Source: a virus. From it: a stretch of 14,021 nucleotides of DNA. The DNA lies in the UHGV virus genome UHGV-0240988; one strand, given 5' to 3'. This document shows, in pieces, positions 2,739-7,238 of this stretch. The position numbers and the translations under genes were made by a program. The stretch's first letter is position 1. The number at the start of each line of letters is the position of its first letter. Below the pieces are notes generated by a model. That model was not told where the DNA came from. It searched no databases and saw nothing but the letters and a program-made list of their open reading frames with translations.

Positions 2739-2871
2739 TCTTTGGGACTCCTGGCTGATTAAGTATGTCGATAAGGCGTTTCCATCCGTCACGTAATTTA
2801 CGGGTGATTCGTTCAAGTAAAGATTCGGAAGGGCAGCCAGCAACAGGCCACCCTGCAATGGCATATTGCAT
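2731..2871 (-). CDS. cIII: cIII (protease-inhibitor / CII-stabilising protein), 46 aa
   Basis: Peptide MQYAIAGWPVAGCPSESLLERITRKLRDGWKRLIDILNQPGVPKNG matches lambda cIII as recalled (lambda is 54 aa; this copy ends 8 residues earlier); GGAG SD 6 nt upstream of ATG 2871. Confidence 0.75.
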   Translation of the reverse strand: MQYAIAGWPVAGCPSESLLERITRKLRDGWKRLIDILNQPGVPKNG

Positions 2872-2892
2872 GGTGTGCTCCTTATTTATACA

Positions 2893-3092: not shown

Positions 3093-3716
3093 TTATGCGA
3101 CCTCGGAAGGAAGTCCAATCATCTTATTCAAATCTTCTACCCGTAAAGCAGGAAGTGCTGTACTTGCTTTATCTGCTTCTTTTGGTAGCAACTCTTTGCT
3201 TTCAGGCCAAACTTCAATAAGTCGCTTAACTGTTGTGACTGAGTTCAAAGCAGCCCATACATTTGATTCGATATCCTTTTTCTTGGCTTCAAGTTTTTGT
3301 TGCAATGCGCAGATTTCATCAAACCTTTTTGTTATTTCGTGTTCTGCGCTAAACATGCATTTATCTTTGGTCGGAGTAGGGAGCAATATATCTTCGCCGT
3401 TGCCGTCTTTCCCATATGAATACCAGCCAACCCTTCTGCCAGATACAGTCAGATAAATTGAAGTTGAACGGGCATCGCATGAGTAAAATGAACATCCCAG
3501 CTTTTCAAGTTCTTCGCTTATAGCCATTAACTTGGATGATAACTGATCCACTTCCTCAGTTTTCTTTTTACCGCCAAACGCAACAACTCTGGCGTCAAGT
3601 GCAAGCTGGTTCTTTAACTTTGTTACTTCTTCAAGCTCAGTGAAAACCCCAGATTTAATTAAAGCGTTACGAGCGATTTTCTCTTTCATTCTCGTAGTTA
3701 AGCGGATTGATGACAT
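3093..3716 (-). CDS. Hypothetical protein, 207 aa (accessory gene between N and cIII, where lambda has ral/sieB/ea10)
   Basis: ATG at 3716 with GAGGAA SD about 8 nt upstream (track ORF extends to 3776); Lys/Glu-rich, no obvious transmembrane segment; no family recognised. Confidence 0.6.
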   Translation of the reverse strand: MSSIRLTTRMKEKIARNALIKSGVFTELEEVTKLKNQLALDARVVAFGGKKKTEEVDQLSSKLMAISEELEKLGCSFYSCDARSTSIYLTVSGRRVGWYSYGKDGNGEDILLPTPTKDKCMFSAEHEITKRFDEICALQQKLEAKKKDIESNVWAALNSVTTVKRLIEVWPESKELLPKEADKASTALPALRVEDLNKMIGLPSEVA

Positions 3717-3777
3717 ATTAATTCCTCTCAAATAAGTGGTTTGCTGCCTAATTTCATTTTCTGGCGACCAACACAAG

Positions 3778-4050
3778 TCATCTTGCTGTCAGTTGTTTGG
3801 ATTTCCGGTAGCCTGCCGCGTAAAGAGCTACATTTGGAAGACAAGTTGAGCCTTCATATTTTCTGGTCAACGTTGTCAGTGTTATTACTTCTGCTCTCAT
3901 TGCTGGTTTGCGCTTGCATTGCAAGACCACTCGAGAGGGGGTTGGTCTGTGTAGCTTGTCGGAGCTAATCGCCTCCTGACTTTGCAGGTTTGCGCGACGA
4001 GCTCTACGACGAGAAGCTGAGGTGCCTTTAAATTCTGTTTTTCTGGACAT
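3778..4050 (-). CDS. N: N-like transcription antitermination protein (P22 gp24-like)
   Basis: Arginine-rich motif SASRRRARRANLQ near the N-terminus and C-terminus ...VALYAAGYRKSKQLTAR resembling the P22 gene 24 C-terminus as recalled; GGAGG SD 6 nt upstream of ATG 4050; first gene downstream of pL/nutL. Confidence 0.7.
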   Translation of the reverse strand: MSRKTEFKGTSASRRRARRANLQSQEAISSDKLHRPTPSRVVLQCKRKPAMRAEVITLTTLTRKYEGSTCLPNVALYAAGYRKSKQLTAR

Positions 4051-4148
4051 AGATTCCTCCCGAATAAACTTTGGTGATGCAATCTCGAAGCTCCTCCTGA
4101 GACGGTTGCTTCGGCATTGCATCCCACAGCTTATGTGGTTGGGTGATC

Positions 4149-4194
4149 TGGCTTTTCAGCCACGTAGTCGAGAGTCGACGTTGTTTAAAGAGCC
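4149..4194 (-). promoter_or_regulatory. Candidate nutL (boxA-like GCTCTTTAA, 23-nt spacer, boxB-like hairpin UGGCU-GAAA-AGCCA)
   Basis: Read on the minus strand; same architecture and spacer length as the candidate nutR at 7108..7153, with a compensatory G-C to C-G swap in the boxB stem. Confidence 0.45.
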
Positions 4195-4229: not shown

Positions 4230-4302
4230 TGATGTGTTTAGTATCACCGCCGGAGGTATTTTCGTCAACACCGCTAGAGATAAAATATTACCGCAAATGG
4301 TT
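4230..4302 (-). promoter_or_regulatory. pL promoter with OL1-OL2-OL3 operators (lambda-like, diverged)
   Basis: Three 17-bp sites TATCACCGCCGGAGGTA (4242-4258), CAACACCGCTAGAGATA (4266-4282), TATTACCGCAAATGGTT (4286-4302) closely resemble lambda OL1-3 as recalled; the minus strand reads TTGACG (-35) ... GATACT (-10) ... CATCAGCAGGACGC as at lambda pL. Confidence 0.75.
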
Positions 4303-4450: not shown

Positions 4451-4479
4451 GTAAAAGAAAACCCGGCGCGGAGGCCGGG
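4451..4479 (-). terminator. Rho-independent terminator ending the cI-cassette transcript (tIMM-like)
   Basis: Inverted repeat CCCGGC (4462-4467) / GCCGGG (4474-4479) with 6-nt loop, followed on the minus strand by UUUUCUUUUAC; begins 16 nt after the stop of the 309-aa ORF. Confidence 0.6.
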
Positions 4480-4494
4480 CTGAAGGGGCTCATT

Positions 4495-5424
4495 CTAATC
4501 GATTGATTTAATATCCCATTGAGGTCGAGAAACCAGAGTGTATCTGGGCTTGCCCTTACCAACAGTTTTTTTCAGGAACGTGGCTGTTGCAACGCTTCCT
4601 AAGTGCTTGTTTATAATATCTGGGTCATCTACAGCTTTGTCAATGCTAGCGGTTCTGATATCAGTGTTACCTAAAACTATAAATTCACATTGGCGCTTGT
4701 TAGGAAGAGTTCCCAAAAATATAACGTTCTCAATAATTTTTTCCTGCTGAATGTTATCATTGCTGAGATGTTGATATACAGCTTCAAGCTGTTTTGGCTC
4801 TCTAAAAACGATGCTAAAACCTTGGCTTTTAAGTGTAAAAACTGTTTTATTTTCATGCAGATAATGAATGAATGCTCTGATTTTATCTAAGGCCCGAGAG
4901 TCTAAGTTTTCTATAGCATCAGACAATTCTTCATCATCATTATCCAAGCTTGCCTGAAATATTTTTCTGGCCTTATTAATAGCTTTTGCTACTGGGGTTT
5001 CTTCATCGAATTCAAGAGGAGCATCAGGTCTAAACTCTTCAAGTACGAATCCGAAAGAACCACGGGCTGACGCGGTAATCATGAGATGATTATTTTCTAT
5101 GTTTGGTATCTTGCCTGATGCAGGAAGTGGGCCATTGAAAGAGGTTGCCAAGTAAGCTATTGCATCATTAAAACAAGATATAGCTTTTGTTCCAAATACT
5201 GCTGAAATGCCATGCGTGCCAACTACTGTTGGGCCTCTAAAAGTTAACACAGCATGCGTAGGTTCATGTTCTCGAACGTCAGCTTGTGAAATTAATCGCT
5301 CAACTTTCTCCAGACGGTCTTCTAAGCTTTTTCGGCTAATAGAATGACTTGTTGGCATATTTTTTAATAGATTACTTATTTGCTCGCGCTCACTGAGAGC
5401 GAAAACATAATCATTACGATTCAT
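4495..5424 (-). CDS. Hypothetical protein, 309 aa; distal gene of the two-gene cassette in the rexA-rexB position (candidate exclusion/defence component)
   Basis: ATG 5424 overlaps the upstream gene's stop (ATGA) and has a strong SD GAGGGGG about 8 nt upstream; AT-rich relative to flanks; no Walker motifs or long hydrophobic segments seen; no family recognised. Confidence 0.7.
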   Translation of the reverse strand: MNRNDYVFALSEREQISNLLKNMPTSHSISRKSLEDRLEKVERLISQADVREHEPTHAVLTFRGPTVVGTHGISAVFGTKAISCFNDAIAYLATSFNGPLPASGKIPNIENNHLMITASARGSFGFVLEEFRPDAPLEFDEETPVAKAINKARKIFQASLDNDDEELSDAIENLDSRALDKIRAFIHYLHENKTVFTLKSQGFSIVFREPKQLEAVYQHLSNDNIQQEKIIENVIFLGTLPNKRQCEFIVLGNTDIRTASIDKAVDDPDIINKHLGSVATATFLKKTVGKGKPRYTLVSRPQWDIKSID

Positions 5425-5999
5425 TGTTTGACCCCCTCAGTAGTAGCCGAATTAAGTATAGTCATTGCCACAACATCAAGTTGTGGGTTTAACGGGATTT
5501 GGATAAATCCCTTCCACGACAGATCGCGTCTATGTGCCCACATACTGTACCAATATACAGTCATTTCAACAAGCTCATGACTTGGTAGATTAAGTTCTTG
5601 GAAGTAGGAATCTACGAAAAACTCCTTCTTAACAAAATCATGATCAAATAGCTCTGGCTTTCTACCGATTACGATTGCATCATTATCGCCATTACTGAAT
5701 TGAAAAAAGGTCACAACATCGACATCATTCGGTGGCCTTTTTTCAATAAGTTCAATATGTTCTGTGAAGCTTCCATCTACCCACTGAAAACCTTCAACTA
5801 GCCCTGCTTGAGTGAGTGAAACACGAAAGTTAAGAAAACCCTTAAGGATTTTAATCCTTGCAGGGCTAAGCGAAAAAGTACTAACAAAGCGTACTATATC
5901 CATTTTGTATGGGGAACGAGTATGGCTTGTAGGATCAGCCTCGTCTATTGGGGGGATTAACCCCATCTCATTCCATAGAGAGACAGTTGGTATACTCAA
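5421..5999 (-). CDS. Hypothetical protein, 192 aa (or about 181 aa from ATG 5966); proximal gene of the rex-slot cassette; possible minimal nucleotidyltransferase-like motif
   Basis: Track start is TTG at 5999 (AAGG 9 nt upstream); in-frame ATG at 5966. Contains ...WVDGSF-x14-DVDVV..., which loosely fits the G[SG]...[DE]h[DE]h signature of Pol-beta-superfamily nucleotidyltransferases (inference only). Confidence 0.6.
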   Translation of the reverse strand: MSIPTVSLWNEMGLIPPIDEADPTSHTRSPYKMDIVRFVSTFSLSPARIKILKGFLNFRVSLTQAGLVEGFQWVDGSFTEHIELIEKRPPNDVDVVTFFQFSNGDNDAIVIGRKPELFDHDFVKKEFFVDSYFQELNLPSHELVEMTVYWYSMWAHRRDLSWKGFIQIPLNPQLDVVAMTILNSATTEGVKQ

Positions 6000-6085: not shown

Positions 6086-6802
<717 letters not shown>

Positions 6803-6809
6803 TTAAATC

Positions 6810-6875
6810 TATCACCGCAGGGGATAAATATCTAACACCGCAGATGTTGGCTATTTTACCTCTGGCGGTGATAAT
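6810..6875. promoter_or_regulatory. OR3-OR2-OR1 operators with divergent pRM (leftward) and pR (rightward) promoters
   Basis: OR3 TATCACCGCAGGGGATA (6810-6826), OR2 TAACACCGCAGATGTTG (6833-6849), OR1 TACCTCTGGCGGTGATA (6857-6873); pR -35 TTGGCT (6847-6852) and -10 GATAAT (6870-6875); cro SD TAAGGAGG follows. Confidence 0.8.
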
Positions 6876-6890
6876 GACTGTATGTACTAA

Positions 6891-7100
<210 letters not shown>

Positions 7101-7107
7101 GTAACCC

Positions 7108-7153
7108 CGCTCTTTGTAACAACGGACATTCGTCCTACGTCGCTGAAAAGCGA
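7108..7153 (+). promoter_or_regulatory. Candidate nutR (boxA CGCTCTTTG, 23-nt spacer, boxB-like hairpin UCGCU-GAAA-AGCGA)
   Basis: boxA-like CGCTCTTTG at 7108-7116 just after the cro stop; hairpin TCGCTGAAAAGCGA at 7140-7153; mirrors the nutL candidate. Confidence 0.5.
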
Positions 7154-7238
7154 GCCCCAAGATATCTGACCAACTCAGGCCATATGCGTTTCCACGCATA
7201 CCAGTCAACTAACTATTCACTATTGGAAATCTTAAGAA

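What the first reader, a model, noticed from the sequence alone, without database searches (positions are those of the whole stretch)
4149..4194. nutL/nutR pair with non-lambda architecture and a compensatory base-pair swap in boxB
Both candidate nut sites have a boxA-like CGCTCTTT motif, a 23-nt spacer containing its own small hairpin, and a boxB-like stem-loop with a GAAA(A) loop: nutL UGGCU-GAAA-AGCCA (4149-4162, minus strand) and nutR UCGCU-GAAA-AGCGA (7140-7153). The two stems differ by a G-C to C-G swap at one position, which preserves pairing, as expected for a selected RNA structure. Lambda has about 8 nt between boxA and boxB, so this N/nut pair is a distinct specificity type, matching the P22-like N C-terminus.
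Basis: seen in the sequence. Interest (0 to 1): 0.4.

Follow-up and report, generated by a model that had tools for sequence, protein, structure and literature searches.

The report
Known Stx-phage-type nutL/nutR antitermination sites
The two elements are the leftward and rightward N-utilisation (nut) RNA sites of a lambda-like E. coli prophage, with a layout already annotated in phage VT2-Sakai and tested in phage H-19B, so the finding is correct but ordinary.

Summary
On the minus strand at 4149-4194, and on the plus strand at 7108-7153, there is a boxA core (GCTCTTT), a 24-nt spacer with its own small hairpin, the linker TACG, and a 5-bp stem capped by GAAA. The composite pattern occurs exactly twice in the window, against 0 expected by chance.

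Two details are wrong. nutL boxA is GGCTCTTT, not CGCTCTTT. The spacer is 24 nt, not 23.

The sites lie where nut sites belong. nutL is between a pL-like promoter and a 90-aa N gene (Pfam N_peptide). nutR is between cro and cII.

nutL is identical to the annotated "putative N-utilization leftward" of VT2-Sakai, and nutR matches its annotated rightward site. nutR shares the spacer hairpin, linker and boxB stem with the experimentally used H-19B nutR. Both helices show compensatory changes across relatives.

The link to a "P22-like C-terminus" does not follow. That C-terminus is shared by N proteins with quite different boxB sites.

One modest extra result: in about 170 loci, N proteins with the short arginine-rich motif always go with GNRA tetraloop boxB, and N proteins with the longer H-19B-type motif always go with GACAA pentaloops.

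Verdict: already known. Interest is low.

The parts
4149..4194 (-). nutL as a whole (boxA, spacer with hairpin, TACG linker, boxB)
   Evidence: Sequence. Identical to the VT2-Sakai feature 'putative N-utilization leftward'. One of only two matches to the composite pattern.
4187..4194 (-). nutL boxA, GGCTCTTT (extended GGCTCTTTAAACAA)
   Evidence: The core GCTCTTT is conserved in relatives while the first base varies among G/A/T/C.
4167..4179 (-). nutL spacer hairpin GTCGA-CTC-TCGAC
   Evidence: Folds. In relatives the stem is kept while the loop varies. Other lineages replace it by GGTGA/TCACC or GATTC/GAATC.
4149..4162 (-). nutL boxB, UGGCU-GAAA-AGCCA
   Evidence: -6.3 kcal/mol. At an anchor that does not require pairing, 172 of 172 nutL positions upstream of N form a 5-bp stem.
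7108..7153 (+). nutR as a whole
   Evidence: Matches the VT2-Sakai 'putative N-utilization rightward' feature. 93% identical to the annotated nutR region of mEp234.
7108..7115 (+). nutR boxA, CGCTCTTT
   Evidence: Corresponds to the boxA annotated in mEp234.
7124..7135 (+). nutR spacer hairpin GGAC-ATTC-GTCC
   Evidence: centroid structure. Same 12 nt as in H-19B nutR, reconstructed from antisense oligos, and as in 933W nutR.
7140..7153 (+). nutR boxB, UCGCU-GAAA-AGCGA
   Evidence: -5.7 kcal/mol. Same stem as H-19B/933W nutR, with loop GAAA instead of GACAA.
3778..4050 (-). N gene: 90 aa plus stop, MSRKTEFKGTSASRRRARRANLQ..., arginine-rich motif at the N-terminus
   Evidence: Pfam PF25694 N_peptide, E 1e-31. 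98.9% identical to VT2-Sakai N. 42% identical to the 127-aa H-19B-type N.
4240..4268 (-). pL-like promoter (TTGACG-17-GATACT) that would transcribe nutL and N
   Evidence: Consensus scan. Same position as the annotated pL of VT2-Sakai and mEp234.
6847..6875 (+). pR-like promoter (TTGGCT-17-GATAAT) that would transcribe cro and nutR
   Evidence: Consensus scan. cro follows at 6900.
6900..7100 (+). cro; nutR boxA starts 8 nt after its stop codon
   Evidence: Pfam PF09048 Cro, E 6e-35.
7180..7205 (+). Candidate tR1 region (hairpin AUAUGCG-UUUC-CACGCAU), the first terminator that N would have to overcome
   Evidence: Fold. The homologous stretch is annotated 'putative rho dependent terminator for pR transcript' in VT2-Sakai. 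Function is inferred.
7239..7538 (+). cII, the first gene downstream of nutR/tR1
   Evidence: Pfam PF05269 Phage_CII, E 6e-34.

Best explanation
These are the two N-utilisation sites of a lambda-like prophage. The prophage combines a lambda-type cI/cro immunity module with a VT2-Sakai-type N gene.

Proposed mechanism:
1. RNA polymerase starting at pL (minus strand) or pR (plus strand) transcribes the site.
2. In the nascent RNA the boxB hairpin (5-bp stem, GAAA tetraloop of GNRA type) is bound by the N-terminal arginine-rich motif of the 90-aa N protein.
3. NusA joins on N and the spacer. The boxA core GCUCUUU is available for NusB/S10.
4. The RNA-tethered complex stays with the polymerase and lets it read through the terminators that follow: tR1 ahead of cII on the right, and the terminators beyond N on the left.

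The extra spacer hairpin is the hallmark of the H-19B-type nut layout. Within that layout the window belongs to the VT2-Sakai subtype: tetraloop boxB with a short arginine-rich motif.

What is shown: sequence, position, folding, conservation, compensatory changes, homology to annotated and experimentally used sites, N family membership, and the N-motif/loop association.

What is inferred: N binding, host-factor use, and actual antitermination at these copies.
For: - Position. nutL lies between a pL-like promoter and N. nutR starts 8 nt after cro and lies upstream of cII.
- Chance. The composite motif occurs only at these two places, with 0 expected.
- Annotation. nutL is identical to, and nutR matches, the annotated putative nut sites of VT2-Sakai.
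- Experimental homologue. nutR shares GGACATTCGTCC-TACG-TCGCT...AGCGA with H-19B nutR, rebuilt from oligos described as antisense to boxA, spacer and boxB. That site supports N-dependent antitermination in vivo and in vitro. It has 'two hairpins', and N+NusA/NusG protect spacer and boxB from RNase H and RNase T1 (PMC3526286).
- Covariation. Across 22 distinct nutL/nutR sequences, 96.8% of cells pair against 67.4% in shuffles. The covariation score is 0.688 against 0.145, reached by 0 of 500 shuffles. Slid registers pair at 24-45%. Seven of 10 pairs change on both sides. The spacer helix has four unrelated stem sequences.
- Non-circular check. 172 of 172 anchor-defined nutL positions have a 5-bp stem.
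- N/boxB association. 85 loci with the short motif have tetraloops at both sites (84 GAAA/GAAA, 1 GAAA/GCAA). 78 loci with the long motif have GACAA at both. No locus is mixed. This includes recombinant-like pairs with the same flanks but a switched motif and loop: L174 versus L183, and L176 versus H-19B-type nutL.
Against: - No experiment exists for this subtype in the literature I could search.
- Most of the ~170 loci are near-identical, so the number of independent lineages is small: about six short-motif lineages and two long-motif lineages.
- In equilibrium folds of longer RNA, boxA pairs with the loop and 3' arm of boxB. The boxB pairing probability is then only 0.19 for nutL and 0.65 for nutR, so local or co-transcriptional folding, or protein binding, has to be assumed.
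- One relative (L057) carries this N with a lambda-type nutR. A matched nutR is therefore not universal.
- Rfam has no matching family.
Confidence: 0.9

Rival explanations
1. The sites are real nut sites, but the GAAA tetraloop is not a separate specificity. The short-motif N and the H-19B-type N would then be interchangeable on GAAA and GACAA boxB. The observed association would only reflect linkage of neighbouring DNA.
For: - N, nutL and nutR lie within about 3 kb and are inherited together.
- Most loci are near-clonal.
- The boxB stem of nutR is identical in both classes.
- L057 has this N with a lambda nutR.
Against: - nutR is separated from N by the highly mosaic immunity region, yet its loop always matches the N class.
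- L174 and L183 share spacer and flanks at both sites but differ in the loop, the closing pair and the N motif together.
- L176 has an H-19B-like nutL spacer but a short-motif N and a GAAA loop.
Confidence: 0.35
2. The copies in this window are inert relics of a defective prophage. The sequence is conserved by recent descent, not by current function.
For: The region is 100% identical to a chromosomal prophage of E. coli CE10 and a few other strains. Many E. coli prophages are defective.
Against: N, cro, cI, cII and both nut sites are intact, and the promoters are present. The same sites occur in inducible Stx phages such as VT2-Sakai.
Confidence: 0.08
3. The hairpins are not N targets. They would be chance structures, or parts of Rho-utilisation or RNase processing signals.
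For: In H-19B the nutR spacer overlaps the Rho loading site (PMC3526286). Folds of the 66-nt segments are not exceptional: z -1.0 and -1.2.
Against: - The motif is expected 0 times by chance and is found twice, at the two canonical positions.
- Both helices show compensatory changes.
- The loop type is tightly coupled to the N motif type.
Confidence: 0.02

Closest known systems
VT2-Sakai (Stx2 phage Sp5) putative nutL and nutR, GenBank AP000422
   Same: - nutL is identical over boxA-spacer-boxB.
- nutR has the same boxA, spacer hairpin, linker and boxB.
- N is 98.9% identical.
   Different: The immunity module between the sites is different. The window has lambda-type cI/cro (Pfam Cro, 237-aa CI), so the sequence just upstream of nutR boxA differs.
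H-19B / 933W nut sites (Neely & Friedman 2000, Mol Microbiol 38:1074; used in PMC3526286)
   Same: - Same layout: boxA, long spacer with a dyad-symmetry hairpin, TACG, 5-bp boxB.
- The nutR spacer hairpin and boxB stem are identical.
- The N C-terminal half and the overall Pfam family are shared.
   Different: - The boxB loop is the pentaloop GACAA in H-19B/933W, against GAAA here.
- H-19B N is 127 aa, 42% identical, with a segment between RRRxR and EAISS that is 7 residues longer.
- H-19B-type nutL has a different spacer hairpin (GATTC/GAATC) and no good boxA.
Phage P22 gene 24 protein and its nut sites
   Same: The last 24 residues of N are 79% identical. The boxB stem GCGCU/AGCGC of P22-type nutL resembles the stems here.
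   Different: - The P22-type arginine-rich motif (GNAKTRRHERRRKLAIER) is unrelated to the one here.
- The loop is GACAA.
- The spacer is about 12 nt with no hairpin (L180).
Phage lambda nutL/nutR
   Same: Same logic and genomic positions, with boxA CGCTCTT. boxB is a 5-bp stem with a purine-rich loop closed by U-A. The GNRA-like fold of the lambda loop is from my own knowledge.
   Different: - Lambda has a ~9-nt spacer without a hairpin.
- Its stem is GCCCU/AGGGC and its loops are the pentaloops GAAAA/GAAGA (seen in L057).
- Lambda N did not appear among the homologues found for this N.

Membership tests
Lambdoid N-utilisation (nut) site | boxA-like motif (core GCTCTT[TA]) 5' of boxB on the transcribed strand | tested here: met
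   GGCTCTTT at 4187-4194(-) and CGCTCTTT at 7108-7115(+).
Lambdoid N-utilisation (nut) site | boxB: short stem-loop with a purine-rich GNRA-like loop | tested here: met
   5-bp stems with a GAAA loop. The stem is supported by compensatory changes at 3 of 5 pairs and by an anchor-based check, 172/172.
Lambdoid N-utilisation (nut) site | One copy between pL and N, one copy between cro and cII/tR1 | tested here: met
   Promoter scan and Pfam assignments.
Lambdoid N-utilisation (nut) site | Cognate N protein with an N-terminal arginine-rich motif encoded next to nutL | tested here: met
   90-aa ORF, PF25694, E 1e-31, motif SRRRARRA.
Lambdoid N-utilisation (nut) site | N- and Nus-dependent readthrough of downstream terminators | not testable with these tools
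   Needs a reporter or in vitro transcription assay. Shown only for the H-19B homologue (PMC3526286).
H-19B-type nut layout | Long spacer (about 24 nt) with a dyad-symmetry hairpin between boxA and boxB | tested here: met
   Hairpins at 4167-4179(-) and 7124-7135(+). Four different stem sequences at the same position in relatives.
H-19B-type nut layout | Sequence homology to the experimentally used H-19B nutR | tested here: met
   GGACATTCGTCCTACGTCGCTGA..AAGCGAG is shared with the oligo-derived H-19B sequence and with 933W.
H-19B-type nut layout | boxB pentaloop GACAA together with the 127-aa H-19B N | tested here: not met
   The loop is GAAA at both sites. N is 90 aa and 42% identical. The window therefore belongs to the VT2-Sakai subtype, not to H-19B proper.
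H-19B-type nut layout | Reduced host-factor requirement (NusA but not NusB/S10) and dispensable boxA | not testable with these tools
   Recalled from the abstract of Neely & Friedman 2000, which the library does not hold. Here both sites have a good boxA core, unlike H-19B-type nutL.
P22-type N/nut | P22 arginine-rich motif, GACAA boxB, short spacer without a hairpin | tested here: not met
   Only the C-terminal 24 residues resemble gp24. The motif, the loop and the spacer all differ.

The most novel reading that the evidence does not exclude
The GNRA-tetraloop boxB (GAAA, once GCAA) together with the short arginine-rich motif (RRRxR + 7 residues + EAISS) may be a separate, orthogonal N-boxB recognition class. 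It would have arisen within the H-19B layout by loss of one loop nucleotide (GACAA to GAAA) and a 7-residue change in N. Natural recombinants (L174 versus L183; L176) would then show that loop and motif must switch together. I found no paper in the searchable library that describes or tests this.
Probability: 0.4. Interest if true: 0.35.

Novelty: already known. Interest (0 to 1): 0.15.

Why it matters
For genome annotation it confirms that this prophage carries a complete N/nut early antitermination module of the Stx-phage type joined to a lambda immunity module. The mosaic junction lies directly after cro.

The wider value is small, because the layout has been annotated since about 1999-2000 and dissected in H-19B.

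The only point that could interest RNA-protein recognition specialists is the strict pairing of tetraloop or pentaloop boxB with two lengths of the N arginine-rich motif. That offers a natural, minimal specificity switch that could be tested with simple reporters.

Tried and rejected
- **Rfam scan.** The gathering-threshold scan of the window found no nut/boxB family, only Lambda_thermo, isrK and C4.
- **PDB sequence searches.** Searches with the window N and with a P22-type N gave no relevant hit.
- **Genome-contig scan.** The scan with an N alignment gave only 5 loci, mostly fragments. Diversity came instead from viral contigs and exact-protein look-ups.
- **Plain MAFFT alignment.** Alignment of the nut sites (A3) put the pentaloop sequences out of register. 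I replaced it with a gap-free alignment in which loops were padded with N (A4). That alignment is hand-registered, and the boxB sites had been selected for pairing. The anchor-only check was added for that reason.
- **boxA/boxB co-variation.** I tested whether the first base of boxA (G in nutL, C in nutR) co-varies with boxB stem position 2 through an alternative boxA:boxB-3' helix. It holds in the window, L173 and L174, but fails in L170, L175 and several viral loci. Rejected.
- **Does the spacer hairpin protect boxB from misfolding?** In-silico arm mutations raised rather than lowered the equilibrium probability of boxB. This gives no support and remains inconclusive.
- **Literature.** Neely & Friedman 2000, Plunkett 1999 and Degnan 2007 are not held.

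Full report
**1. Observation**

On the minus strand the window reads, from 4194 down to 4149: GGCTCTTT-AAACAAC-GTCGA-CTC-TCGAC-TACG-TGGCT-GAAA-AGCCA. On the plus strand, 7108-7153 reads: CGCTCTTT-GTAACAAC-GGAC-ATTC-GTCC-TACG-TCGCT-GAAA-AGCGA.

- The two boxB 14-mers fold as 5-bp stems with a 4-nt loop: -6.3 and -5.7 kcal/mol, z -2.8 and -4.6.
- The pattern GCTCTTT-N15-30-TSGCTGAAAAGCSA matches these two places only, with 0.00 expected in 200 shuffles.
- A looser scan for a boxA-like motif followed by a 5-bp stem with a GA..A loop also returns only these two sites on both strands of the window.

The finding's coordinates 4149-4194 are exactly nutL, from the first base of boxA to the last base of boxB. 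Two details need correction. nutL boxA starts with G, not C. With an 8-nt boxA the spacer is 24 nt, not 23.

**2. Context**

- The ORF at 3778-4050 (minus) encodes a 90-aa protein, MSRKTEFKGTSASRRRARRANLQ.... It matches Pfam PF25694 (transcriptional antitermination N peptide) with E 1e-31.
- A pL-like promoter lies at 4240-4268 (minus) and a pR-like promoter at 6847-6875 (plus).
- cro (PF09048), cI (HTH_3 plus Peptidase_S24) and cII (PF05269) are in the canonical order.
- nutL therefore lies between pL and N. nutR starts 8 nt after cro and lies upstream of cII.
- The N-to-cII stretch is 100% identical to a prophage of E. coli O7:K1 CE10 and a few other strains.

**3. Relation to annotated and tested sites**

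- The nutL/N region is 97.7% identical to many Stx phages. The nutL sequence itself is identical to VT2-Sakai, where it is annotated 'putative N-utilization leftward'.
- VT2-Sakai also annotates a 'putative N-utilization rightward' with the same boxA, spacer hairpin and boxB as the window, followed by a 'putative rho dependent terminator for pR transcript'.
- 933W and mEp234 carry annotated nutL/nutR of the same layout but with GACAA loops.
- The H-19B nutR can be rebuilt from four oligos described as antisense to its boxA, spacer, boxB and the following region (PMC3526286 supplement). It reads ...CCGCTATTTTCACAATGGACATTCGTCCTACGTCGCTGACAAAGCGAGTCCC... The spacer hairpin, linker and stem are the same as in the window's nutR.
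- That paper reports N-dependent antitermination on this site in vivo and in vitro. [quoted passage not shown]
- The dyad symmetry in H-19B spacers was the subject of Neely & Friedman 2000. I know that paper only from memory of its abstract, because the library does not hold it.

**4. Comparative test**

I collected four sets of loci:
- 80 viral contigs encoding the window-type N;
- 80 viral contigs encoding the H-19B-type N;
- contigs encoding more distant N proteins at 82%, 72%, 70% and 52% identity, plus chimeric forms;
- contigs encoding phi21-type and P22-type N proteins.

Results by class:
- With the window-type N, nutL is always TGGCT-GAAA-AGCCA and nutR is always TCGCT-GAAA-AGCGA. The nutL spacer stem stays constant while its loop varies.
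- With the H-19B-type N, nutL is GCGCT-GACAA-AGCGC and nutR is TCGCT-GACAA-AGCGA.
- More distant relatives keep the layout CAA(C/T) - hairpin - (T/C)ACG - boxB. They replace the spacer stem (GTCGA/TCGAC, GGTGA/TCACC, GATTC/GAATC, GGAC(G)/(C)GTCC) and vary the boxB stem (TGGCT, AGGCT, TGGCC, GCGCT, TCGCT, TCGCC, each with its complement).

Covariation was counted on a hand-registered, gap-free alignment of 22 distinct sites:
- 96.8% of cells pair, against 67.4% in shuffles.
- The covariation score is 0.688 against 0.145, reached by 0 of 500 shuffles.
- Slid registers pair at 24-45%.
- Seven of 10 pairs change on both sides.

The boxB sites had been picked with a pairing filter, so I repeated the check for nutL with an anchor that ignores what follows. 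All 172 anchored positions form a 5-bp stem, where about 1.5% would be expected per random site.

phi21-type and P22-type N genes have nut sites without a spacer hairpin (L178-L180). The hairpin is therefore specific to the H-19B-like group.

**5. N motif and loop type**

- Among loci where both sites were found, 84 with the short motif have GAAA at both sites and 1 has GAAA/GCAA. All 78 loci with the longer motif (RRRxRLK...) have GACAA at both. No locus is mixed.
- Loci lacking one site are mostly truncated. The exceptions are L057, which has a lambda-type nutR, and L005, where no nutR was found within 7 kb.
- Many loci are near-identical, so the independent evidence rests on a few lineages.
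- L174 (short motif, GAAA) and L183 (long motif, GACAA) share spacers and flanks at both sites.
- L176 has an H-19B-like nutL spacer with a short-motif N and a GAAA loop.

This suggests, but does not prove, two recognition classes.

**6. The P22 argument**

The last 24 residues of N are 79% identical to P22 gp24. The same C-terminus (CLPNVALYAAGYRKSKQLTAR) is present in short-motif, H-19B-type, phi21-type and P22-type proteins. It therefore says nothing about nut specificity. From general knowledge of lambda N, that region contacts RNA polymerase, and the N-terminal motif reads boxB.

**7. Mechanism**

The best reading is standard N antitermination: boxB bound by N, NusA on N and the spacer, boxA for NusB/S10, and the complex carried along by the polymerase through tR1 and the leftward terminators.

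One caveat is that equilibrium folding of longer RNA favours pairing of boxA with the loop and 3' arm of boxB. The boxB probability is then 0.19 for nutL and 0.65 for nutR. I found no covariation for that alternative helix. In-silico spacer mutations did not show a protective role for the hairpin. The role of the hairpin in this subtype remains open.

**8. Verdict**

The element is already known: it is annotated with the same sequence in VT2-Sakai, and the layout was characterised in H-19B. Interest is low. A modest open point is the tetraloop/short-motif class.

Noticed in passing
window 4040-4150, minus strand (inverted repeat 4076-4091 / 4108-4123): The N leader between nutL and the N start codon folds into a very stable long hairpin that reaches the Shine-Dalgarno region (-40.7 kcal/mol, z -4.9, 0 of 200 shuffles as stable). 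Its position recalls the RNase III-processed hairpin of the lambda N leader (from memory).
   Followed up: partly
window 2826-2884 (-), 12083-12156 (+), 12181-12268 (+): Three Rfam gathering-score hits: the Lambda cIII thermoregulator element, the isrK Hfq-binding sRNA and the C4 antisense RNA.
   Followed up: no
L057 (IMGVR_UViG_2531839234_000006), boxA near locus position 1103 on the strand opposite N: This contig has the window-type N and a GAAA nutL, but a lambda-type nutR (CGCTCTTACACATTCCAGCCCTGAAAAAGGGC). It is a natural N/nutR mismatch or a recent recombinant.
   Followed up: partly
window 6086-7100 versus 7101 onward: Mosaic junction. cI (237 aa) and cro are lambda-type (Pfam Cro), as in the lambda-immunity phage mEp234. 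The sequence switches to the VT2-Sakai/H-19B type immediately after the cro stop codon.
   Followed up: partly
window 3093-3776 (-): The gene directly downstream of N encodes a 227-aa protein with a full-length Nmad5 domain ('nucleotide modification associated domain 5', E 6e-71). This is an unusual passenger in the pL operon.
   Followed up: no
window 4495-5424 (-) and 5421-5999 (-): Two genes occupy the rexAB-like slot between cI and pL: a 309-aa protein with no Pfam match and a DUF6932 protein. A terminator-like hairpin follows at 4460-4481. They may be lysogen-expressed accessory or defence genes.
   Followed up: no
L173 (Cronobacter turicensis prophage), nutR: Here the nutR boxB loop is GCAA instead of GAAA while nutL keeps GAAA. 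The change stays within the GNRA consensus.
   Followed up: no
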